This document shows positions 17,142 through 28,171 of a stretch of DNA of 64,000 nt, piece by piece. The position numbers and the translations under genes were made by a program. The stretch is from Tabrizicola sp. (GTDB lineage Bacteria; Pseudomonadota; Alphaproteobacteria; Rhodobacterales; Rhodobacteraceae). The notes beneath the pieces were generated by a model, which saw nothing but the letters and a program-made list of their open reading frames with translations, did no database searches and was not told where the DNA came from. Location: the NCBI RefSeq assembly GCF_016793705.1, contig NZ_JAEULO010000043.1, positions 351 through 64,350 of the forward strand, given 5' to 3'. Numbering within the stretch: the stretch's first letter is position 1; every line of letters starts with the position of its first letter.

Positions 17142-18435
17142 CGTAGGTGCCTTTGCTCCAACGCCCGGCAACCGCGGCTTCCATGGCGGCGATATCGTCG
17201 GGGACGGGTATGGTGATCGGCTGCATCAAGGGGTGGCTGTCGGTCACGCCGCCCGGCAGGATCGCCGGGAACGAGGACTGCGACCAGCGCACCAGCTGCA
17301 CGGCGGGAGAGCCGGTGAGCAGGGCGGCCGAGGGTTGCGACCACAGGATATGGTCCATCAGGTCGTTCGGGCGGTAGACCCCGTCGGCGATCCCGTCGCC
17401 GTTCAGGTCGAAGGCCGGGTGGTCCGACCAATAGTTGCCGCGGCCCTCGAAGCTCCACTCCATGAACCGGGTGCCGACGTATTTCACCTGCTCCTGGTTG
17501 CCGACGAAAGCGTTGCCGGTCAGCATGTTGCGCTCGGACCCCGCGGTGAAGTGGATGCCGATGCCACAGCCCTCGAAGCGGTTGTTCGCGATCAGGTTCT
17601 TGTGGGCGTTGTAGATGAAGAGGCATTTCCTGGTGCCGCCCCGCACCAGGTTGCCCGCCACATCCGCGTTGTTGGCGAAGTTCAGCATCACCCCATGCTC
17701 GCGGTCGCCGAGCGAGAGGTTGTTCGTCACCACCACCCGGTCGCTGAACATGATCGCGAAGCCCAGGTGGTTGCCGATCGAGATGTTGCCCGACACCTCG
17801 CTGTCGTGGGTATACATGTAGTGGACCGCGAAGCGCAGGTCACGGAACAGGTTGTTGCGGTAGGTGCCCTTCTTCGAGGCGTTCGAGAAGATGCCGTCAC
17901 GGCCCCAGCGGATATCGTTGCCCTCGATCACCGTGCCGGGGCTGTTCCAGATGTAGACACCGTTGCCGCGTTCATTCATGCGCAGGTTCTGTCGGCCCAG
18001 GATCACGTTGTTCCGGACCAGCGTGTCGAGCCCGCCATGGACATCGACGCCATGCATGTTCTCGACCAGCCGGTTGCCCTCGATCCGCGTGCCGTCGGCG
18101 CCCTTGACCACCTTGATCGCGGAATCGATGGACTGGTTGTCGTCGCCCGATCCGATGACTTCCAGCCCGGTCAGGACCACGCCATCCCCGGTCACGGTGA
18201 TCACGGTTCCCCTGCGCTGCCCGTCGACCACTGCGCTGCCGTCACCTTGCAGGGTCAGGGTCCGGTCGATGGTGATGGGCCCCAGATAGGCCCCGCCAGA
18301 GAGAATGAGCACGTCGCCGGGGGCAGCCCCGGCGATGGCTTCGGCCAGCGTGCCCTCACCCGGCATGACATGCGTCTCTGCCGCCAGAAGCGGCGAGGAG
18401 AGCAGCATGAGAAGGGCAAGGACACGCAGCATCAT
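17107..18435 (-). CDS. nosD: Periplasmic N2O-reductase maturation protein
   Basis: Beta-helix CASH repeats; RFAVHYMY and GNYWSD; ATG overlaps the nosZ TGA. Confidence 0.93.
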   Translation of the reverse strand: MMLRVLALLMLLSSPLLAAETHVMPGEGTLAEAIAGAAPGDVLILSGGAYLGPITIDRTLTLQGDGSAVVDGQRRGTVITVTGDGVVLTGLEVIGSGDDNQSIDSAIKVVKGADGTRIEGNRLVENMHGVDVHGGLDTLVRNNVILGRQNLRMNERGNGVYIWNSPGTVIEGNDIRWGRDGIFSNASKKGTYRNNLFRDLRFAVHYMYTHDSEVSGNISIGNHLGFAIMFSDRVVVTNNLSLGDREHGVMLNFANNADVAGNLVRGGTRKCLFIYNAHKNLIANNRFEGCGIGIHFTAGSERNMLTGNAFVGNQEQVKYVGTRFMEWSFEGRGNYWSDHPAFDLNGDGIADGVYRPNDLMDHILWSQPSAALLTGSPAVQLVRWSQSSFPAILPGGVTDSHPLMQPITIPVPDDIAAMEAAVAGRWSKGTYDDIDTDDLGSH

Positions 18436-20387
18436 CAGGCCCCGGTCGGCTCCACGAACATCCGGCCCCGCATCTCCATGTGCAGCGCGTGGCAGAACCA
18501 CTGGCAATAGTACCAGTAGACCCCGGCATTCGCCGCCGTGAAGGTGACGGAACTGGTCGCCTGCGGCCCGATCTCCATCGCGACGCCGTGGTTGCCCATG
18601 GTGAAGCCGTGGGTCAGGTCGTCGATGTCGTCGAGGTTGGTGACGATCACCGTGACCTCATCACCTTCCTTCACCGTGAAGCTTTCCAGCGCGAAGCTGG
18701 GCGCCTGGCTGGAGATGTAGACGCGGACCTTCTTCGGGTCATTCTTGTCGCGGATCACCATGTCCTGCCAGTCGTCCAGGTTCACCCCGTCCGCTTCGGC
18801 CTGGGTACGGGTCTCTGCCCACATCTTGTCCTGCCGGTTCCAGACCGACAGCGGGTTCACCTTGCTTGCCGCCACGCCGATGGCGTCATGCGGTTCGGCG
18901 AAGTTCGGGCCGTCGTGCACCACCACCATCTTGTCGCCCGAGATGTCGATCAGCTGGTCGTTCTCGGGCTTCAGCGGGCCGACGTTCAGGAAGCGGTCCT
19001 TCGAGAACTTGCACAGGCAGACCAGCCAGTTGTTCTCGGCCTCCAGCGTCTCGCCCATCACGGTCTTAAGGTGACCGGGCTGGTACTGCACGTCGACCTT
19101 GTCCTTGATCGGGTCGACCTGTTCGCCGGCATAAGCCTTGATCGCGTCCTCGATGGACCACTTCACCACCTGGCTGTCCAGGAACAGCGAGGTATAGGCG
19201 AAGCCACGTCCGTCGAAGGCGGTGTGCAAGGGGCCGAGGCCCAGTTCCGGCTGCGCGACGATGGTCGTGGACGGATCGGCATCGCCGTCGAAGAGCGCGT
19301 CGAACCTGGTCACATCCAGCACGGTGACGGTCGGCGACAGCTTGCCGCCGATGCAGAGGTGCTTTTTGTCCGGCGCCATGTTGCAGCCGTGCGGGTTGTT
19401 CGGAATGGGGATATAGCGGGTGAACTTGCTCTTCGCGTCCTTCCGCCCGTCCAGCACCCTGACCCCGTTCAGCTCTTCCCCCTCGCCCGCCGCGACGGCG
19501 GCCTCGATCGCGGCGATGTTGAAGACGACGACATGGTCGGCCTCGGCGGCGGTCATGTCGGCCAGCGTCATGCCCATTTCCGAGTTGTAGGACGTGGAGA
19601 AGGCCCACTTGCCCTCATAATCCGCATCGCAGTTGTCGAGGTTGCCCGAGACCATCACCTGCCAGGCGGGCAGCATCGCTTCGGCGTCCACCGCGGTGAA
19701 GATGTTCACATAGGTCGACACGTCCTGCATCGTCGAGCCGTCGTTGACCAGCGGAGCCTCGTCCTCGCCGTTGCAGAAGACGTATTTCGTGCCGGGGAAC
19801 TTCTGCGGCCGCATCCCGTGGATCGCCTTGGCGTTGGGGATTTCCAGGATCGCATCGCATTTCATCACGTCTGCGCGGACCCGGGCGACGCGGGTGTTGG
19901 CCTTGTCGTTCATGAACAGGTACTTGCCGTCGTACTTGCCGTCGGTGAACGACATATGGACGTGGTGCAAATCGCCGTTGTCATGCACCTTCTTGCCGTT
20001 GGCGGCGAGCTGCTTCTTGGTCTTCTCGGTCATCGTGCGCTGGTGGATGCGGACCGATTCATTGGTCTCGCCCCAGCCGGTGGCCGAGCAGCGGTTGAAA
20101 ACCGGCACCCGCATCAGCTCGCGCATCGATGGCAGGCCGAGGATGCGCATCTCGCCGGTCTGGCCCGAGGACCAGAAGCCGTAATGCGTGTCCAGCTGGC
20201 CGGGCGCGACTTCGAAGCCTTCCGCCGCCTGGGCCACGGCGGCCGAGGTGCCAAGCGCCAACGCGCCGACGCCGGCGCCGGTGCCAAGCGCCAGGCGGCC
20301 GCCAAGCGCGCCGGCCAGCGCCGCGCCACCGGCTGTGGCTCCCAGAAGGCCGCGGCGGGAGATGCCAGAGGTGGGTCGTTCAGACAT
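18435..20387 (-). CDS. nosZ: Nitrous-oxide reductase, clade I (Tat-exported)
   Basis: Tat signal ISRRGLL; CuZ His motifs DLHHVH and GPLHT; CuA motif [13 protein letters not shown]. Confidence 0.98.
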
Positions 20388-20399
20388 GATCTGTCCCTT

Positions 20400-22583
20400 T
20401 CATTCAGCAGGTTGGGGTTTGGGTGAGTTCGGATGGCCCGAGATGTTCCGGGCTGGCGAAGCGGCGGCAGTCTCGCGCCGCTTCAGCTTCTTGATCACGA
20501 CCGGACACTTGGTCTTGGACTGGTACAGGACCTGGCAATGCAGACAGTCGATGCATTCGTTCGGGTTGATCTCGCCCGTGGGGTGGATCGACTGGACCGG
20601 GCATTCGATGGCGCAGGTCTGGCAGGGGTTGCCGCATTCCTTGTAGCGCTTCAGCCAGTCGAACATCCGCATCCGCGCGGGGATCGCCAGCGCCGCGCCC
20701 AGCGGGCAGAGATAGCGGCAGTAGAAGCGTTCCACGAAGAGCCCCGCCGCCAGCAGCGCCAGCGCATAGGCCACGAAGGGCCAGGCCCGGACGAATTTCA
20801 GCACGATGGCGGTCTTGAACGGCTCTACCTCGGCCAGATGCTCGGCCTGCTCGATGCTCATGAGGGAAACGCCGAAGAGGCCCAGGAAGATCATGTACTT
20901 GATCGGCCACAGCCGTTCATGCAGGCCCCAGGGCAAAGTCCATTGCGGGATGCGCAGCTTGCGGGCGATCTGGTTGGTCAGCTCTTGCAGAGCGCCAAAG
21001 GGGCAGAGCCAGCCGCAATAGGCGCCCCGGCCCCAGAAGATCAACGAGGCCGCCACGCTGAACCACAGGATGAAGGTCAACGGATCCAGAAGGAAGGCCT
21101 GCCAACTGAACCCGCTGATCAGCGCCCCGAACAGCGCCATCAGGTTGACCACCGAAAGCTGCGCATTGGCATACCAACCGAGGAAAACCAGCGTCACGGT
21201 CAGATAACCCATGCGGAACCACCAGAAGCGGCGCTCGTTCCGGGTGGCGAAGCCTTGGAAGAAGAAGACCAGCGTCAGCACCGCCAGCATCCCGGCGGTG
21301 ATCGCGATTTCAACCTGCTTGTCCTGCCAGATGCGCTTCCACAGCGCCTGCTGCGCCGCCGTCTCTTCCTGCGCGGCAACTGCCTCGGCGGGACCGGTAT
21401 CCTCGGCGGCGACGGGCACCGCGACGGGACGTAGGTATTTCTCGGGCAGCTGATAGCCCAGGTCGAAGGTGGTGTAGAGCTTCTCGATCGGCCCGACCTC
21501 GCGCTGCACCAGAAGCTGGATGCGGAACGGCTTGGTCGGATCGAACCCCACGTCGGCGGGAATCTTGAAGAGATCAGCCTCGGTGAACTCGGGTGCGCCC
21601 GGGGCCGCGACCCCGACCACGCGCTTGTGCATCTTGTCGTGGAACCGGACCGAGACATCGTCCTGGATCAGCACGATCCGGTCGAAGATGCCGCCCCGCA
21701 CATAGCCCGAGCCCTTGAAGCTGTAGATCCCGCGCCCGACGATGATGATGGCATTCTCGCCCGGTTGCAGCCAGTTGCCCAGGTTCGCCGCCTCGCCCTC
21801 GCCCAGGATCACCTTGGCGATCGCCGGGTGGGATACCAAGGCGGCCTGCATCTCGATGAAGGTGGTTTCCGGCGGCTCGGTCAGCGCCCTGGCCGTGGCG
21901 CGCGGATCGCCGAGCGCCGCGAAGGCCGCGTTGACCTGGCCCACGTCCAGCGACAACCGGCGCAGCGTTCCGTCGCCCTCCAGCGCCCTCCAGTCCTGGG
22001 CCGCCGTCGCATCGGGGTTCACCTCGAAGGCCGGACCGGTGCTGGCCGTCTCGGGCGCGAGGCCCCCCAGCCCCATCGCCCGCGCGGCCTTAAGCCCGGC
22101 CCGCACGATGGAATCGTCGATCACCATCACCGTCACGGTCGCACCCGAGATGATGTCGAGGTCATGCGAGGTGCCGCCCGACTTCGCCTCGGCCACAAGG
22201 TCGACGCCGACATAGCTTGCCGCCAGCGCGTCGATCTTGGCCTGGGGAATGCCAATCAGCACGATGGGCTCGGAATGCTTCAGAAGCTTGACGCCGATGA
22301 TCCTGGCGTCCTTGTCGACCGCGACCATCGTGTGAATGGGCTTGCCGGAATAGCCGGTGGTCGACACGAAATCGCTGGTGATGAAGGCCCAGCCGACCGT
22401 CTCGCCCCCTTTCAGGACCGGAACGGCAGGCGCATCCTCGCGCAGCGGACCGAACCCTTCGGCGCCCGCGACCAGTTCTGCCGCAGTGACCTTGGGCAGA
22501 AGGGTCTCCAGGATCGAATCCGCCGCTGCCGGCAGGGGCAGCAGAAGTGCGAGCGAAACGACAAATCGAACAAGAGCTTGCAT
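20400..22583 (-). CDS. nosR: NosR flavo-iron-sulfur membrane protein
   Basis: FMN-attachment ISGAT; CGWLCPFG, CRYLCPLG and C-terminal ferredoxin Cys clusters. Start re-assigned to 22583. Confidence 0.94.
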   Translation of the reverse strand: MQALVRFVVSLALLLPLPAAADSILETLLPKVTAAELVAGAEGFGPLREDAPAVPVLKGGETVGWAFITSDFVSTTGYSGKPIHTMVAVDKDARIIGVKLLKHSEPIVLIGIPQAKIDALAASYVGVDLVAEAKSGGTSHDLDIISGATVTVMVIDDSIVRAGLKAARAMGLGGLAPETASTGPAFEVNPDATAAQDWRALEGDGTLRRLSLDVGQVNAAFAALGDPRATARALTEPPETTFIEMQAALVSHPAIAKVILGEGEAANLGNWLQPGENAIIIVGRGIYSFKGSGYVRGGIFDRIVLIQDDVSVRFHDKMHKRVVGVAAPGAPEFTEADLFKIPADVGFDPTKPFRIQLLVQREVGPIEKLYTTFDLGYQLPEKYLRPVAVPVAAEDTGPAEAVAAQEETAAQQALWKRIWQDKQVEIAITAGMLAVLTLVFFFQGFATRNERRFWWFRMGYLTVTLVFLGWYANAQLSVVNLMALFGALISGFSWQAFLLDPLTFILWFSVAASLIFWGRGAYCGWLCPFGALQELTNQIARKLRIPQWTLPWGLHERLWPIKYMIFLGLFGVSLMSIEQAEHLAEVEPFKTAIVLKFVRAWPFVAYALALLAAGLFVERFYCRYLCPLGAALAIPARMRMFDWLKRYKECGNPCQTCAIECPVQSIHPTGEINPNECIDCLHCQVLYQSKTKCPVVIKKLKRRETAAASPARNISGHPNSPKPQPAE

Positions 22584-22634
22584 GGGCCCCCCGGGGAACT
22601 GGTGCTTGCTTAGTCCGGATCTGCGGAAAGGGCC

Positions 22635-22648
22635 TTGACCTAACTCAA
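22635..22648 (-). promoter_or_regulatory. FNR/NnrR/DNR-type box for nosR
   Basis: TTGAC-CTAA-CTCAA, about 50 bp upstream of the nosR ATG. Confidence 0.75.
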
Positions 22649-22795
22649 GCTTCCGAAAAACGCGATACGGACCCGGCGGCAGAACATCGAGGCGGATTTC
22701 CTGTCTGGCAGGGTAGCCGATTGATCCGGCATTCCACGATCTCTTTACGAAAGAGTTCCTGTCAACCTTTTCCGCATGTAGCATGATGCCAACAC

Positions 22796-23386
22796 ATGTC
22801 CACGACAACGAACATTCCCCCTTCTCTGCTCCCTGCCCGCGTTCATGAAGTCTGCGGACCGGCGGCGACCGGCTTTGCGGCTGTCGCCTGCGCGCAGGGC
22901 AAGGGAGACCTGCTCTGGCTGCGTGAGGACTGGCAGGCCGGGATGCTTGACCCCGCAGGCCTGTCGGCGTTCTGCGATCCCGCGCGAATCCTGGTCGCGC
23001 GGACGAAGAACCAGACCGACACGCTCGCCGCCGCCGAAGAGGCGCTGAGGGATGGCGTGGTCGCGCTGGTGGTGATCGAGATCACCCGCCCGCTGGACCT
23101 GCGCGAGGGGCGGCGGCTGCAACTGGCTGCAAAGGCCGGGCGATCGACGGGCCTCTGCCTGATCCCCGAGGGGGCGGGCAGCCCCGCCACCGAGACACGC
23201 TGGCATTGCGCCCCGGTCTTCGACCCCGCCGAACCGACGGACTCGACTCTGATGCGCTGGGAAATTATCAAGAACAAATCAGGAACAATTGGGGCCTGGC
23301 ATGTTCGATGGAATAGAGCGGCGCATCGTCTCGATGTGGTTTCCCCGGTTGGCCAGCGACCGGGTTCTTCGGCGGCAGGCGGTTGA
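22796..23386 (+). CDS. imuA: ImuA (RecA/SulA-like)
   Basis: RVHEVCG, RRLQLAA; first gene of the imuA-imuB-dnaE2 cassette. Confidence 0.85.
   Translation: MSTTTNIPPSLLPARVHEVCGPAATGFAAVACAQGKGDLLWLREDWQAGMLDPAGLSAFCDPARILVARTKNQTDTLAAAEEALRDGVVALVVIEITRPLDLREGRRLQLAAKAGRSTGLCLIPEGAGSPATETRWHCAPVFDPAEPTDSTLMRWEIIKNKSGTIGAWHVRWNRAAHRLDVVSPVGQRPGSSAAGG
23272..23286 (+). promoter_or_regulatory. Alphaproteobacterial LexA box within the imuA CDS
   Basis: GAAC-AAATCAG-GAAC is a perfect GAAC-N7-GAAC, ending 14 bp before the imuB ATG. Confidence 0.7.
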
Positions 23387-24782
23387 TGGCCCCTTTGCCC
23401 TGACCCTGCGGCTGGACAATACCGAGCGGGTCCATTGCCTGAACCGGCAGGCCGAGGCCGAAGGGCTGTATCGCGGCATGCCGTTCTCCGAGGCCCGGGC
23501 CTTCTGTCCCACCTTGCGCGGCGCCCCGGCCGACCCGGCCCGGGATGCCGTCATGCTGGAAACCTTGCGCCGGTGGGCGACGAAATATTGCCCCTGGGTG
23601 GGGATGGAGGGTGCGGACGGGCTGGTGCTGGACATCACCGGGGCAGCGCATTTGTGGGGCGACGAACCGGCGATGCTGGCCGACATGCAGCTGCGGCTGG
23701 ACCGGGCGGGGTTCGAGGCTCGGATCGGGCTGGCCGACACGCGCGGGGCGGCCTGGGCGCTGGCCCGCCACGGTGGGGGGATCACCGCGCCGGGCGCAGG
23801 TCTGGCCGCGCTGGCAAGCTTGCCCGTCGCGGGCCTGCGGTTGGACGAAGCGACGGTGATCGCTCTGAAGCGGCTGGGGCTGCGGACCATCGGCGCGCTG
23901 GCCACGGCGCCCCGCGCGCCCCTGGCCCGGCGGTTTGGCGCGGGTCTGCTCCTGCGGCTCGACCAGGCGGCGGGCCTTCAGCCCGAGCCGGTCACCCCTC
24001 TTGCCGACCCGCCCCGCCATGCGGTCCGCCTGACCTTGCCGGACCCCATCGGGCTGACGTCTGATGTCATGGCCGGCACCGCGCGGCTGCTTCAGGAGCT
24101 TTGCCTCAGGCTCAAGGCGCAGGAGGTAGGCGCGCGTGTCTTGCGCCTGACCTTGCGCCGGGTCGATCAGGCCAGTTGCCAGGTGGAGTTGCGGCTCGCC
24201 TCTGCCATGCGCGACCCGGCGCGGATCCTGCCGCTTTTCGCGCGAGGGGTGGAGGAGGTGGACGCGGGGTTCGGCATCGACCAGCTGCGGCTGGAGGCGA
24301 CCCAGGTCGACCCCCTGCCCGTGCAGCAGATCGGCCAGGCGGCAGAGGCCCCGGACCGGCGCGACAACCTGATCACCCGGATCGGCACCCGGATCGGGCT
24401 GGACAACATCCGGCGCTTCCTGCCCGCGGACAGCCATATCCCCGAACGCAGCTTCGTCATGATGCCCGCAGCAGGGACGAAGACCTGCGGCGACTGGCAG
24501 GTGCCCCGCCCTCGTCCGCGCCCCCTGCTGCTGTTTCCGCCCGAACCCATCGTCGCGCAAGGAACCCTGCCACCCACCAGTTTCCGCTGGCGGCGGATGC
24601 GCCTGACCACTGCCCGCGCCACGGGGCCGGAACGCATCGCCCCGGAATGGTGGGTCGAGGACGACGGCCCGTGTTCGGGGCTGCGCGATTACTGGCGGAT
24701 CGAGACGCATCAGGGCCGGCGATTGTGGCTGTTCCACATGCCGCAGAAACCGGGCTGGTTCGTACAGGGAGAATTCGCATGA
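23301..24782 (+). CDS. imuB: ImuB, catalytically inactive Y-family polymerase
   Basis: IVSMWFP in place of the catalytic Asp motif; GPERIAPEWW and RDYWRIE C-terminus. Confidence 0.92.
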   Translation: MFDGIERRIVSMWFPRLASDRVLRRQAVDGPFALTLRLDNTERVHCLNRQAEAEGLYRGMPFSEARAFCPTLRGAPADPARDAVMLETLRRWATKYCPWVGMEGADGLVLDITGAAHLWGDEPAMLADMQLRLDRAGFEARIGLADTRGAAWALARHGGGITAPGAGLAALASLPVAGLRLDEATVIALKRLGLRTIGALATAPRAPLARRFGAGLLLRLDQAAGLQPEPVTPLADPPRHAVRLTLPDPIGLTSDVMAGTARLLQELCLRLKAQEVGARVLRLTLRRVDQASCQVELRLASAMRDPARILPLFARGVEEVDAGFGIDQLRLEATQVDPLPVQQIGQAAEAPDRRDNLITRIGTRIGLDNIRRFLPADSHIPERSFVMMPAAGTKTCGDWQVPRPRPRPLLLFPPEPIVAQGTLPPTSFRWRRMRLTTARATGPERIAPEWWVEDDGPCSGLRDYWRIETHQGRRLWLFHMPQKPGWFVQGEFA

Positions 24783-27700
24783 TCCATGCGGCTTTCGAAC
24801 CGGCGGATGACGGGAAAAATGCCCGCTCCCATCGCTATGCCGAACTGTGCGTCACCACGAATTTCACCTTCCTCACCGGCGCTTCGCATCCCGAGGAACT
24901 GGTGCTGCGCGCCGCCGAACTGGGGCTGGAAGCCGTCGCCATTACCGACCGCAACAGCCTGGCCGGCGTCGTGCGGGCGTGGTCGGCGCTGAAGACCTTG
25001 CGGCAAGACGCAGCGAACAGCCTGCGAATCCGCTCATCCACCCGGATCGACACCAGCTCCCGGCAGGAAATCGGACCCGCGCAGGATCTGGCCCATCCGG
25101 CCTGTCCGGCGCTGCCCCGGCTGATCGTTGGCGCGCGGCTTGTCTTGCAGGACAGCGCGGTCGAATGGCTGGCTCTGCCCACGGATCGCAGCGCATACCA
25201 TCGGCTCTCGCGCCTCCTGACGCTGGGCAAGCGCCGGGCCGGAAAGGCGGAATGCCACCTGACGCAGGCCGACCTGGCCGCTCCCGATCCTGACGGCGGC
25301 TGCCGGGGAATGATCCTGATCGCGCTACCCCCTTCTGACCTGCCGCAGTCGGACCCGGACCGGGCGCTTGCTCCGATCCGGGCCATGGTGCGCCGCTATC
25401 CCGGTCATGTCTTCCTGGGCGCCGCGCCGCGCTATGACGGGACGGATCAGGCCTGGTTCGACACCTGCGCCAGGCTTGCACAACAGGCGTCCAGTCCGAT
25501 GGTGGCGGTGGGCGACGTGCTGATGCACCGCGCCGCCCGCCGCCCGCTGGCCGATGTGCTGACCTGCATGCGCGAAGGCCTCACCATCGACCGGATCGGC
25601 ACCCGCGCCCTGATGAACGCCGAGCGGCGGCTGAAAGGCGCCGGGGACATGGCCCGGCTCTATCACCGTCATCCCGCCGCGATCCGCCGCACGCTGGAGA
25701 TCACGGCGCGCTGCGGCTTCGACCTGTCCGAACTCAGCTACGAATATCCCGACGAGATCGCCGATGGCGAAGCGCCCCAGGCCCGGCTGGAACGGCTGAC
25801 CCGCGCGGGTCTGGCCCGGCGTTGCCCCGATGGCATTCCCGACCGCTACCACGACCTCCTGGCGAAAGAACTGGGTGTGGTCGGCGAGCTTGGCTATGCC
25901 GCCTATTTCCTGACCGTGCATGACATCGTGTCCGAGGCCCGCAAGCGCGGCATCCTGTGTCAGGGCCGGGGATCGGCGGCCAATTCGATCATTTGCTGGG
26001 CCCTCGGCATCACCGATGTCTCGCCCGACATGATCGGCATGGTGTTCGAACGCTTCGTCTCGCGCCATCGGGGCGAGCCACCCGACATCGACGTGGATTT
26101 CGAACACGAGCGGCGCGAGGAGGTGATCCAGTGGATCTATGAGCGCTACGGCCGCCACCGCGCCGGGCTTTGCGCGACGGTCATCCATTTCCGCTCCCGC
26201 GCCGCGATCCGCGAAGTGGGCAAGGTCATGGGCCTCAGCGCCGACGTGACCGCCAGCCTCTCGGGGCAGGTCTGGGGCCTGTCAAACGGCGGTGCGGATC
26301 CGGCGCGGATTCGCGAACTTGGCCTGAACCCTGACGACCGCCGCCTTGCCCGCACCATCGCGCTCATCAGAGAGATCATCGGCTTTCCGCGCCACCTGTC
26401 GCAGCATGTCGGCGGTTTCGTCATCACCAAGGGCAGGCTGGACGAGTTGTGCCCGATCGAGAATGCGGCGATGGAGGCGCGCACCTGCATCGAATGGGAC
26501 AAGGACGACATCGACGCGCTGAAGATCCTCAAGGTCGATGTGCTTAGCCTCGGGATGCTGACCTGCATCCGCAAAGCCTTCGATCTGCTGGAAACGCACG
26601 AGAACACCCGCCACACGCTCGCCTCGGTTCCGCAAGAGGACGGGGCAACCTATGACATGCTCTGCCGCGCCGATGCGGTGGGCGTCTTCCAGGTCGAAAG
26701 CCGGGCGCAGATGAATTTCCTGCCCCGCATGAAGCCGCGCGAATTCTACGATCTGGTGATCGAGGTCGCCATCGTCCGCCCCGGCCCGATCCAGGGCGGC
26801 ATGGTCAAACCCTATATCAAGCGGCGGCAGGGGCTGGAAAAGCCGGAACCCTTCGGCCCGGCGCTGGAGGAGGTGACGCGCAGGACGCTCGGGGTGCCGC
26901 TGTTTCAGGAGCAGGCGTTGCAGATCGCCATGGTCGGGGCGGGCTATACGGCGGAAGACGCCGACCAGCTGCGCCGCTCGCTGGCCTCGTTCCGACGCAT
27001 GGGCACCATCGCCCAGCACAAGCAGAAGTTCATCGGCGGGATGCTGGCCAACGGCTACGACCCCGAGGTCGCGGAACGCTGCTTCGGCCAGATCGAGGGT
27101 TTCGCCGACTATGGCTTTCCCGAAAGCCATGCCGCAGCCTTCGCCATGCTGACCTATGTCTCCTCCTGGCTGAAGTGCCACCATCCGGCGATCTTTGCCT
27201 GCGCGCTTCTGAACGCGCAGCCGATGGGCTTCTATGCCCCCGCCCAGATCGTGCGCGACGCCCGCGAGCACGGGGTGGAGATCCGCCCCGTCTGCGTGAA
27301 CCACAGCACCTGGGACAACCGGCTGGAACGGCGTCCCGACGGGCATCTTGCCCTGCGGCTGGGGTTCCGCCAGATCAAGGGCTTCAGCGAGGCGGATGCG
27401 GACGGGATCGTCACCGCGCGCGGCAACGGCTATCCCGATCCCGAAGGCCTCTGGCTGCGGGCTGGCCTGATGTCTCCCGTGCTGGAGCGCCTGGCCGAAG
27501 CCGATGCCTTTTCCGGCCAGGGCCTGACCCGCCGCGATGCGCTCTGGGCCGTGCGGGCGATCCGGGCGCCTGCGCCGCTGCCGCTCTTCGCCAATCCGCT
27601 GGATGGCGAAGGGCTGCGCGAACCGCCCGTCACGCTGCCCGCCATGCATCTGGGCGAGGAGGTGGTCGAAGACTATGTCGCCCTGCGCCTGACCTTGCGC

Positions 27701-28171
27701 GCGCATCCGATGGAACTCTTGCGCCCCGCAATCCCCGGCCTGACGCCTCATGCCGAGCTGGCCCATGTCCCCCTCCGCCGCCTGTCGGTCTGCGGGCTGG
27801 TGATCACCCGCCAGCGCCCCGGCACCGCCTCGGGCGTGATCTTCCTGACGCTGGAGGATGAAACCGGGGTCTGCAACGTCGTCGTCTGGCCGAAGGTCTA
27901 TGAGCGCTTCCGCCGGATCGTGATGGGCGGGCGGCTCTTGCGCGTCACCGGGCGGCTGGAGCGCGAGGGCATCGTCACCCATCTGATCGCCGAACGGATC
28001 GAGGACCTGTCGCCCCGGCTTGCCGATCTCGGTCATCCGCTGGAAGCTGCCGTGGGCCTGACCCAGCCGCAGGCCGACGATGCCCCCCGCCCCCCGCGTC
28101 CTCATCCGGCCCGGGCGCACCATCCGCGGGAACAGGCGAAAAAGCTGTTCCCCAGCCGGGATTTCCATTGA
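24779..28171 (+). CDS. dnaE2: Error-prone DNA polymerase III alpha (ImuC)
   Basis: PHP start YAELCVTTNFTFL; GRGSAANS, PPDIDVDFEH; C-terminal SRDFH. ATG overlaps the imuB stop. Confidence 0.96.
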   Translation: MIHAAFEPADDGKNARSHRYAELCVTTNFTFLTGASHPEELVLRAAELGLEAVAITDRNSLAGVVRAWSALKTLRQDAANSLRIRSSTRIDTSSRQEIGPAQDLAHPACPALPRLIVGARLVLQDSAVEWLALPTDRSAYHRLSRLLTLGKRRAGKAECHLTQADLAAPDPDGGCRGMILIALPPSDLPQSDPDRALAPIRAMVRRYPGHVFLGAAPRYDGTDQAWFDTCARLAQQASSPMVAVGDVLMHRAARRPLADVLTCMREGLTIDRIGTRALMNAERRLKGAGDMARLYHRHPAAIRRTLEITARCGFDLSELSYEYPDEIADGEAPQARLERLTRAGLARRCPDGIPDRYHDLLAKELGVVGELGYAAYFLTVHDIVSEARKRGILCQGRGSAANSIICWALGITDVSPDMIGMVFERFVSRHRGEPPDIDVDFEHERREEVIQWIYERYGRHRAGLCATVIHFRSRAAIREVGKVMGLSADVTASLSGQVWGLSNGGADPARIRELGLNPDDRRLARTIALIREIIGFPRHLSQHVGGFVITKGRLDELCPIENAAMEARTCIEWDKDDIDALKILKVDVLSLGMLTCIRKAFDLLETHENTRHTLASVPQEDGATYDMLCRADAVGVFQVESRAQMNFLPRMKPREFYDLVIEVAIVRPGPIQGGMVKPYIKRRQGLEKPEPFGPALEEVTRRTLGVPLFQEQALQIAMVGAGYTAEDADQLRRSLASFRRMGTIAQHKQKFIGGMLANGYDPEVAERCFGQIEGFADYGFPESHAAAFAMLTYVSSWLKCHHPAIFACALLNAQPMGFYAPAQIVRDAREHGVEIRPVCVNHSTWDNRLERRPDGHLALRLGFRQIKGFSEADADGIVTARGNGYPDPEGLWLRAGLMSPVLERLAEADAFSGQGLTRRDALWAVRAIRAPAPLPLFANPLDGEGLREPPVTLPAMHLGEEVVEDYVALRLTLRAHPMELLRPAIPGLTPHAELAHVPLRRLSVCGLVITRQRPGTASGVIFLTLEDETGVCNVVVWPKVYERFRRIVMGGRLLRVTGRLEREGIVTHLIAERIEDLSPRLADLGHPLEAAVGLTQPQADDAPRPPRPHPARAHHPREQAKKLFPSRDFH

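What the first reader, a model, noticed from the sequence alone, without database searches (positions are those of the whole stretch)
23272..23286. Perfect LexA operator written into the imuA coding sequence
Seen: GAAC-N7-GAAC at 23272-23286 within the codons for K-N-K-S-G-T, which use AT-rich codons (AAA TCA GGA ACA) that stand out in this GC-rich DNA. It ends 14 bp before the imuB ATG. I found no GAAC/GTTC-N7 box upstream of imuA. Established: alphaproteobacterial LexA binds GTTC-N7-GTTC, and imuABC is normally SOS-controlled. Inference: this is dual-coding DNA, where LexA gates imuB-dnaE2 from inside imuA (internal promoter or roadblock) while imuA may be regulated separately.
Basis: partly seen in the sequence, partly recalled or inferred. 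Interest (0 to 1): 0.65.

Follow-up and report, generated by a model that had tools for sequence, protein, structure and literature searches.

The report
LexA operator inside imuA gene
A binding site for the DNA-damage repressor LexA, probably with its own promoter, is written into the last codons of imuA just before imuB. Its silent codon positions are frozen in about 170 species, so the error-prone polymerase genes imuB-dnaE2 appear to be switched on by DNA damage separately from imuA.

Summary
GAACAAATCAGGAAC lies at 23272-23286 inside imuA codons K-N-K-S-G-T and ends 14 bp before the imuB ATG. The bare pattern is not rarer than chance in the window (2 found, 1.6 expected). The extended alphaproteobacterial LexA motif gives a different answer: the site scores 29 bits, against 7.9 bits for the next independent hit in 64 kb.

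It is perfectly conserved in all 80 closest imuA loci and in 177 unique sequences overall. Its silent positions are fixed on locally rare codons (AAA, GGA, ACA), while neighbouring silent sites vary freely.

A second conserved block, GACTCGACTC-N15-TTA, lies just upstream and reads as a -35/-10 pair. Homologues that lack the internal box also lack this block, revert to GC-rich codons, and usually carry a LexA box upstream of imuA instead (Fisher p = 2e-6).

Best reading: a LexA-repressed internal promoter for imuB-dnaE2, with imuA under its own promoter that has no LexA box.

The site was listed as a predicted LexA site before imuB in a 2012 supplementary table for two species. I found no description of its dual-coding nature or of the promoter.

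LexA binding and the transcription start are inferred, not shown.

The parts
22796..23386 (+). imuA coding sequence (196 aa), a divergent ImuA. The regulatory element lies in its codons 149-164, about 100 nt before its stop.
   Evidence: ORF and translation. Weak NCBIfam ImuA hit of 32 bits, no Pfam hit. Public relatives are named 'ImuA family protein'.
23272..23286 (+). Core LexA operator GAAC-N7-GAAC. The extended site is 23268-23290, AGAACAAATCAGGAACA.
   Evidence: PWM score 29.1 bits. Present in 80/80 and 69/74 homologous loci, and AAA and GGA are 100% in 177 unique sequences.
23240..23249 (+). Conserved block GACTCGACTC. Proposed -35 element: CTCGAC at 23242-23247 or TCGACT at 23243-23248.
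   Evidence: 92-99% conserved at every base, including the silent positions of GAC, TCG and ACT (ACT is 2.4% of Thr locally). Lost together with the box. Resembles ACTCGACA, TGGACC and TTGACTCT in imuA promoters of other cassettes.
23265..23271 (+). Proposed -10 element, TTATCAA (TA at 23266-23267). It lies 17 nt after the -35 and directly abuts the operator.
   Evidence: T26, T27 and A28 are 97-99% conserved. The residue at codon 148 varies (I, N, K, S, T) but its codon always begins with A. This is inference: an E. coli-type scan rejects the site because position 6 is A rather than T.
23261..23264 (+). Weak third half-site GAAA, giving GAAA-N7-GAAC-N7-GAAC. Seen only in this subfamily.
   Evidence: The overlapping PWM hit at 23257-23279 scores 16.3 bits. 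GAA is 86% and ATT 99% in subfamily 1. Absent in subfamily 2.
23301..24782 (+). imuB (inactive Y-family polymerase). Its first 86 nt overlap the end of imuA in another frame.
   Evidence: Pfam IMS and IMS_C hits. The ATG sits at box+29 in nearly all homologues.
24779..28171 (+). dnaE2 (error-prone DNA polymerase). Its ATG overlaps the imuB stop (ATGA).
   Evidence: NCBIfam error-prone DNA polymerase, 1310 bits. Start region read.
22584..22795 (.). imuA-nosR intergenic region, which holds the imuA promoter. No LexA-like site here.
   Evidence: No PWM hit among the window's top 12, all of which are 5.1 bits or more. nosR and nosZ are divergent.

Best explanation
The 15-mer at 23272-23286 is a genuine alphaproteobacterial LexA operator, embedded in the 3' part of the imuA reading frame. 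The conserved block upstream of it probably forms a promoter: -35 CTCGACT at about 23242-23248, a 17-bp spacer, and -10 TATCAA at 23266-23271. Together they would make a LexA-repressed internal promoter for imuB-dnaE2. The transcription start is expected at about 23276-23280, inside the operator.

Without DNA damage, LexA sits on the start site and blocks initiation. After damage, RecA-stimulated LexA cleavage frees the promoter and ImuB and DnaE2 are made. In this window imuA is transcribed from its own promoter in the imuA-nosR intergenic region, which has no LexA site, so ImuA supply is uncoupled from the SOS switch.

The element was built on an older ImuA peptide motif, KNKxG, by fixing codons (AAG AAC AAA ... 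GGA ACA). It also seems to have imposed residues on the protein: D-S-T, Thr154, and an A-starting codon at position 148.

Shown here: the sequence, the nucleotide-level purifying selection, the motif match, and the complementary distribution with upstream boxes. Inferred: LexA binding, the promoter and its start site, and the physiological consequence.
For: 1. Conservation. All 80 closest loci (ImuA 56-78% identical) have GAACAAA-N4-GAAC at the same codons. So do 69 of 74 loci in a second Rhodobacterales subfamily.

2. Silent-site selection. Conserved-residue columns elsewhere in imuA have codon entropy of 0.8-2.0 bits. Within the block it is about 0.1 bit (GAC, TCG, ACT 95%, ATT 99%, AAG, AAC, AAA, GGA 99%). 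Interspersed silent sites stay saturated: CGN 2.0 bits, ATH 1.55, GGN 1.95. Given the peptide and local codon usage, the box has a probability of about 0.03, or about 0.005 if AAA is also required.

3. Motif. Published alpha LexA sites give TGTTC-N4-TTTGTTC, which is GAACAAA-N4-GAACA on the other strand. This explains the AAA and ACA codons. The site scores 29.1 bits, against 7.9 for the next hit.

4. Same sequence as a classical operator. Acetobacter oryzoeni has the identical GAACAAATCAGGAAC 60 nt upstream of imuA. Shinella has GAACAAATAGAGAAC at -46. Box-less relatives have GAACAAAATAGGAAC and similar sites upstream.

5. Complementary distribution. Among 162 loci with the internal box, 22 also have an upstream box. 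Among 20 loci without it, 13 have an upstream box. Fisher p = 1.8e-6.

6. Co-loss. Loci without the box also lack GACTCGACT and TTA, and use AAG AAC AAG CGC GGC.

7. Promoter-like layout. The strongly constrained silent sites fall in the -35, the -10 and the operator. Spacer silent sites are weak or free. The -35 resembles those of imuA promoters elsewhere.

8. RNA. In eight D. shibae RNA-seq assemblies the SRAP (SOS response-associated peptidase)-imuA contig is 4-9 times deeper than imuB. It ends 100-400 nt after the imuA stop.

9. Earlier prediction. The same site was predicted as a LexA site before imuB in R. sphaeroides and P. denitrificans (PMC3323433, Additional file 4).
Against: There are no binding data and no transcription start data for any member.

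The proposed -10 (TATCAA, or TAnnAA in general) has A instead of T at its last position, which is normally highly conserved. A strict sigma-70 scan finds no promoter here.

The conserved upstream block is 10 nt long, longer than a -35 hexamer, so it could bind something else.

The RNA evidence comes from assembled contigs with flat depth, from one organism that also has an upstream LexA box. It cannot resolve a start site.

The loci were retrieved with peptide patterns that include the KNK motif. That enriches for the peptide, though not for the codons.
Confidence: 0.72

Rival explanations
1. It is a genuine LexA operator but there is no internal promoter. imuA-imuB-dnaE2 is one transcript from the imuA promoter, and LexA bound inside imuA acts as a roadblock to elongating RNA polymerase. 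This would also leave imuA transcripts without a stop codon.
For: No canonical sigma-70 promoter is detected at the site. The operator lies inside a transcribed gene. In D. shibae transcript abundance falls downstream of the site.
Against: RNA contigs in eight runs cross the box without a break and end 200-500 nt further on, not at the box. A roadblock does not explain the strictly conserved GACTCGACTC and TTA block 5-32 nt upstream, nor its co-loss with the box. I know of no case of LexA acting as a roadblock (my own knowledge).
Confidence: 0.13
2. The nucleotide conservation serves the mRNA rather than LexA. Possibilities are an unstructured A-rich ribosome landing zone or hairpin controlling imuB translation, or a frameshift signal joining imuA to the overlapping imuB frame.
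For: The region is AT-rich and lies just before the imuB start. GAACA can pair with UGUUC at the imuB start codon. imuA and imuB overlap by 86 nt in different frames.
Against: The fold is weak (-7 kcal/mol) with no covariation, and there is no Rfam match. In subfamily 2 the imuB ATG is 15 nt further away yet the box is unchanged. The codon mix is not simply AT-rich, since AAG and AAC are kept: it is exactly what spells GAAC...GAAC. No slippery heptamer is present. None of this explains the match to the LexA consensus or the swap with upstream boxes.
Confidence: 0.05
3. It is a chance match created by a conserved protein motif (KNKxGT) plus recent shared ancestry or horizontal spread of the cassette.
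For: The bare pattern occurs at the chance rate in the window. KNKxG is conserved in very distant ImuA proteins. The cassette is often plasmid-borne, and one pair of loci is 100% identical.
Against: Silent sites elsewhere in the same genes, and even within the block, are saturated. Homologues that keep KNKxG without the box use AAG and GGC. Local codon usage gives a probability of about 0.005 per lineage, yet 177 of 177 unique sequences keep AAA and GGA.
Confidence: 0.02

Closest known systems
Alphaproteobacterial SOS box (LexA operator GTTC-N7-GTTC / GAAC-N7-GAAC) upstream of imuA in the imuA-imuB-dnaE2 cassette (Caulobacter, Rhizobiales, Acetobacteraceae)
   Same: Same direct-repeat motif, including the spacer preference (GAACAAA-N4-GAACA). 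Same cassette. The identical 15-mer is found in Acetobacter oryzoeni. The Caulobacter imuABC operon is LexA-controlled (PMC12700426).
   Different: In those cassettes the operator lies in non-coding DNA 40-60 nt before imuA and controls all three genes. Here it lies inside the imuA reading frame, 14 nt before imuB. imuA is left without a LexA box, and the site is maintained through codon choice.
Predicted LexA sites 'RSP_1458 (imuB) -1' and 'Pden_4289 -38' in Sanchez-Alberola et al. 2012 (PMC3323433, Additional file 4)
   Same: This is the same element. The reverse complement of the Pden_4289 site is ATAAGAACAAATCAGGAACATAT, and the R. sphaeroides site is GAACGAAACAGGAAC directly before imuB.
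   Different: It was listed only as a promoter-proximal site in a table. In the text and supplements I could read there is no mention that it lies within an imuA coding sequence, of silent-site conservation, of an internal promoter, or of imuA being left outside LexA control. Erill et al. 2006 (PMC1326238) was not available to check.
Intragenic LexA sites found by ChIP-seq in Mycobacterium tuberculosis, Leptospira and Streptomyces
   Same: LexA binding sites inside coding sequences are a documented phenomenon (papers listed).
   Different: I did not read those papers. This site is conserved across about 170 species and is placed to control the next gene of the same functional cassette.

Membership tests
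Alphaproteobacterial LexA operator (SOS box) | Direct repeat GAAC-N7-GAAC (GTTC-N7-GTTC) | tested here: met
   Perfect match at 23272-23286.
Alphaproteobacterial LexA operator (SOS box) | Extended consensus TGTTC-N4-TTTGTTC with flanks, scored against known or predicted sites | tested here: met
   29.1 bits, against a training median of 24.7. It is the best site in the 64-kb window by 21 bits.
Alphaproteobacterial LexA operator (SOS box) | Position overlapping or adjoining the promoter of a DNA-damage gene | tested here: inconclusive
   The site lies 14 nt before the imuB ATG and directly after a conserved -35/-10-like block. The promoter is inferred only, and the strict scan is negative.
Alphaproteobacterial LexA operator (SOS box) | Evolutionary conservation beyond neighbouring sequence | tested here: met
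   80/80 and 69/74 loci. Silent sites are frozen while their neighbours are saturated.
Alphaproteobacterial LexA operator (SOS box) | Physical binding by LexA and de-repression after DNA damage | not testable with these tools
   No EMSA, ChIP or damage-induction data were available. The R. capsulatus lexA-mutant paper is not held.
imuA-imuB-dnaE2 mutagenesis cassette | Three co-oriented genes: a RecA/SulA-like ImuA, an inactive Y-family ImuB, and a DnaE2 polymerase | tested here: met
   NCBIfam and Pfam hits for ImuB and DnaE2, plus a weak ImuA hit. Relatives are named ImuA family protein.
imuA-imuB-dnaE2 mutagenesis cassette | A single LexA-controlled operon with the operator upstream of the first gene | tested here: not met
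   There is no LexA-like site upstream of imuA in the window. The operator lies inside imuA instead. 140 of 162 related loci show the same arrangement.

The most novel reading that the evidence does not exclude
In most Rhodobacterales the mutasome operon has been split by moving its SOS promoter-operator into the imuA reading frame. ImuA would then be made independently of LexA and might have an SOS-independent role, while only ImuB-DnaE2 are damage-gated. The regulatory DNA would dictate part of the ImuA sequence: the D-S-T motif, Thr154, and an A-starting codon at position 148. This would be a deeply conserved case of a transcription-factor site and promoter constraining protein evolution.
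Probability: 0.5. Interest if true: 0.7.

Novelty: new variant of a known kind. Interest (0 to 1): 0.58.

Why it matters
The imuA-imuB-dnaE2 cassette drives damage-induced mutagenesis in about a third of bacteria and is usually described as one LexA-controlled operon. If this reading is right, a large clade (Rhodobacterales and some other alphaproteobacteria, often on plasmids) gates only ImuB and DnaE2 by SOS and expresses ImuA separately. That changes how the stoichiometry and timing of mutasome assembly should be thought about in these organisms.

It is also an unusually clean natural example of overlapping codes. Promoter, operator, the tail of one protein and the head of the next share about 150 bp. 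Nature has supplied control lineages in which the operator moved back upstream and the codons relaxed.

Practically, it warns that regulon predictions restricted to intergenic DNA, and annotations that call this ImuA a 'hypothetical protein', miss or misplace the site.

Tried and rejected
1. Window-level enrichment of the bare pattern. It is not significant, so I replaced it with PWM scoring.

2. E. coli-type promoter and terminator scans around the site and in imuB. Nothing was found.

3. RNA evidence for the window organism. It occurs only in sludge and wastewater DNA metagenomes.

4. R. capsulatus RNA runs. These are held only as long assembled contigs with flat depth, about 7% divergent from my locus, and are uninformative.

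5. Laying reads on the D. shibae plasmid locus. I worked around it with the 100% identical locus L104.

6. Papers not held: Erill 2006, Erill 2004, Kuchinski 2016.

7. D. shibae per-gene expression tables. Not present in the held supplements.

8. Rfam and a consensus RNA fold. No family matched, and the only structure is a weak hairpin without covariation.

9. Search for the KNKRGP-type ImuA group in genomes. It returned mostly Rhodobacterales again, but still gave 15 or so box-less loci that served as natural controls.

10. ECF-sigma reading of GGAAC-N16-GTTC. I considered and dropped it, because the start site would fall inside imuB and the spacing is off.

Full report
**1. What is in the window**

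imuA runs from 22796 to 23386 on the + strand. imuB starts at ATG 23301 in another frame and ends at 24782. dnaE2 starts at ATG 24779, overlapping the imuB stop, and ends at 28171. The upstream genes nosR and nosZ are divergent, so imuA has its own 212-bp upstream region.

The sequence GAACAAATCAGGAAC lies at 23272-23286 within the imuA codons AAG AAC AAA TCA GGA ACA (K N K S G T). Local GC content drops to 0.43-0.47.

**2. Is it more than chance?**

The bare pattern GAAC-N7-GAAC occurs twice in the window, against 1.62 expected. On its own it proves nothing.

I built a position weight matrix from 77 predicted alphaproteobacterial LexA sites in Additional file 4 of Sanchez-Alberola et al. 2012 (PMC3323433), leaving out the two imuB-type sites.
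- The window site scores 29.1 bits.
- The leave-one-out median of the training sites is 24.7 bits.
- The best of 13 P. denitrificans and R. sphaeroides SOS-gene sites scores 24.0 bits.
- The next non-overlapping hit in the 64-kb window scores 7.9 bits.
- The other perfect GAAC-N7-GAAC match, inside dnaE2, is not among the top 12 hits.

The published sites give the consensus TGTTC-N4-TTTGTTC, which is GAACAAA-N4-GAACA on the other strand. The AAA and the trailing A are therefore part of the motif.

**3. Conservation**

Searching one genome per species with ImuA gave 80 loci. Most are Rhodobacterales, with a few from Hyphomicrobiales and Geminicoccaceae, and ImuA identity is 56-78%. All 80 carry GAACAAA-N4-GAAC at the same codons.

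A second subfamily, about 45-50% identical to the window protein and often a second copy in the same genome, carries the box in 69 of 74 loci. Pooled, 177 unique sequences have AAA at 100% and a trailing A at 73%. The GAAC half-sites and the Gly codon GGA, also 100%, were the criterion used to collect this set.

*Codon-level test.* Columns with a conserved residue elsewhere in imuA have codon entropy of 0.8-2.0 bits, and GGA is 4-11% of Gly codons. Within the block D139-T154 the entropy is about 0.1 bit: GAC, TCG, AAG, AAC, AAA and GGA are each 99%, ACT is 95% and ATT is 99%. Three silent sites interspersed in the same block are saturated: CGN at 2.0 bits, ATH at 1.55 and GGN at 1.95. This rules out recent common ancestry and shows selection on the DNA itself.

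In neighbouring genes of the window, AAA is 15.5% of Lys, GGA 4.6% of Gly, ACA 1.8% and ACT 2.4% of Thr, and ATT 6.6% of Ile.

**4. Natural controls**

The peptide KNKxG is conserved in ImuA proteins as distant as 35-45% identity, many of them KNKRGP, where a second GAAC is impossible. The peptide is therefore older than the box.

In loci that keep KNKxG but lack the box, the codons are AAG AAC AAG CGC GGC/GGG. The upstream GACTCGACT and TTA features are also gone. Thirteen of these 20 loci have a perfect LexA box within 260 nt upstream of imuA. Only 22 of the 162 loci with the internal box do (Fisher p = 1.8e-6). Four of the seven exceptions still have a one-mismatch internal box.

The upstream boxes in those loci look like the internal one: GAACAAAATAGGAAC, GAACAAATTAAGAAC, GAACAAAACACGAAC.

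In canonical cassettes on plasmids, the box sits 39-60 nt before imuA:
- Acetobacter oryzoeni has the identical GAACAAATCAGGAAC at -60.
- Shinella has GAACAAATAGAGAAC at -46.
- Microvirga and Roseomonas have GTTC-type boxes at -45 and -39.

SOS control of the cassette is thus kept by one operator or the other. This is the strongest argument that the internal sequence functions as a LexA site.

**5. The upstream block and the promoter model**

Besides the box, 23240-23249 (GACTCGACTC) is 92-99% conserved at every base, and 23265-23267 (TTA) is 97-99% conserved. The 15 nt between them are conserved only where the protein demands it, namely the Trp codon.

The strongly constrained silent positions fall in three places:
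- CTCGACT, the proposed -35. The alphaproteobacterial consensus is CTTGAC (my own knowledge).
- TAnnAA, the proposed -10, 17 nt downstream.
- The operator, which begins immediately after the -10.

Spacer silent sites are weak or free. Codon 148 changes residue among I, N, K, S and T but always starts with A. That is what selection on the -11 A of a promoter would produce.

Similar -35 sequences (ACTCGACA, TGGACC, TTGACTCT) precede the LexA boxes of imuA promoters in other cassettes.

There is a caveat. The last base of the proposed -10 is A, not T, and a strict E. coli-type scan finds no promoter. The promoter is therefore an inference. I give it about 65-70% probability, and about 90% that the 15-mer is a real LexA operator.

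**6. imuA regulation**

The window has no LexA-like site upstream of imuA, and the same is true of 140 of 162 box-bearing loci. Many relatives show TTGAAA-N16-TAGnnT ending about 6 nt before the imuA ATG, which suggests a leaderless mRNA.

**7. RNA evidence**

The window organism is known only from sludge and wastewater metagenomes.

For Dinoroseobacter shibae pDSHI03 the gene order is an SOS response-associated peptidase gene (SRAP), then imuA, imuB and dnaE2. The internal box lies 41 nt before imuB, and there is a second box before the SRAP gene. I used locus L104, which is 100% identical to this region.

In eight RNA-seq assemblies a high-depth contig covers the SRAP gene and imuA, crosses the box, and ends 100-400 nt beyond the imuA stop. 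Further into imuB the depth is 4-9 times lower.

This fits uncoupled expression of imuA and imuB-dnaE2, and it argues against a hard roadblock at the box. Assembled contigs cannot show a transcription start, however.

**8. Rival explanations**

- *An RNA-level function.* The only fold is a weak hairpin (GAACA with UGUUC at the imuB start, -7 kcal/mol) with no covariation, and there is no Rfam match. In subfamily 2 the imuB ATG is shifted by 15 nt while the box is unchanged.
- *A frameshift signal.* There is no slippery site.
- *Chance plus protein constraint.* Excluded by sections 3 and 4.

**9. What was already known**

The GTTC-N7-GTTC SOS box and LexA control of imuABC are established (PMC12700426; PMC3323433).

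The very site was listed in 2012 as 'RSP_1458 (imuB) -1' and 'Pden_4289 -38'. Its existence as a predicted LexA site before imuB is therefore not new.

In the literature available to me I found nothing on the following:
- its position inside an imuA reading frame;
- the frozen codons;
- the associated promoter block;
- the reciprocal distribution with upstream boxes.

This ImuA has no Pfam hit and is mostly annotated as a hypothetical protein, which may explain the gap. Erill et al. 2006 could not be read.

**10. Verdict**

This is a new variant of a known kind of system: an SOS operator, probably with a promoter, embedded in a coding sequence and splitting the mutagenesis cassette. Binding and start-site experiments are still needed.

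Noticed in passing
window 23301-23386: imuA and imuB overlap by 86 nt in different frames. The overlap is conserved in nearly all homologues, and is about 83-86 nt in the Shinella and Microvirga cassettes too. The ImuA tail (RLDVVSPxGxRPG) is the alternative-frame reading of the conserved ImuB N-terminus (RRIVSMWFPRL).
   Followed up: partly
window 23261-23286: Three half-sites one helical turn apart, GAAA-N7-GAAC-N7-GAAC. This resembles the triple repeats in rhizobial and Brucella lexA promoters. The overlapping second site scores 16.3 bits and occurs only in this subfamily.
   Followed up: partly
L021, L034, L041 and many other loci, about 40 nt before the imuA ATG; window 22740-22795: Most homologues have a TTGAAA-N16-TAGnnT-like promoter ending about 6 nt before the imuA start codon, which suggests a leaderless imuA mRNA.
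   Followed up: no
window 23272-23276 and 23302-23306: The first half-site GAACA can pair with UGUUC at the imuB start codon. The hairpin is weak (-7 kcal/mol) and shows no covariation. It would exist only in read-through transcripts, not in ones starting at the proposed internal promoter.
   Followed up: partly
L104 versus D. shibae plasmid pDSHI03 (L241 1268-4213): A Roseovarius sp. contig is 100% identical over 2,946 nt to the D. shibae 126-kb conjugative plasmid. 74 PLSDB plasmids encode a relative of this ImuA, and several genomes carry two cassettes, so the cassette is mobile.
   Followed up: partly
L241 (D. shibae) 1783-2463; L106: In some cassettes an SOS response-associated peptidase (SRAP) gene precedes imuA and overlaps it. 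It has its own LexA box about 54 nt upstream, giving two operators per cluster.
   Followed up: partly
window 18435-22583 (- strand): nosR (FMN-binding and 4Fe-4S domains) and nosZ (nitrous oxide reductase) lie divergently upstream of imuA, so the organism is probably a denitrifier. The sequence is found in activated-sludge and wastewater metagenomes.
   Followed up: no
L104 1874-2182 (inside imuB); window equivalent about 23480-23790: In D. shibae the abundant imuA-containing transcript ends reproducibly 100-400 nt into imuB, although no intrinsic terminator is detectable there. The cause is unknown.
   Followed up: partly
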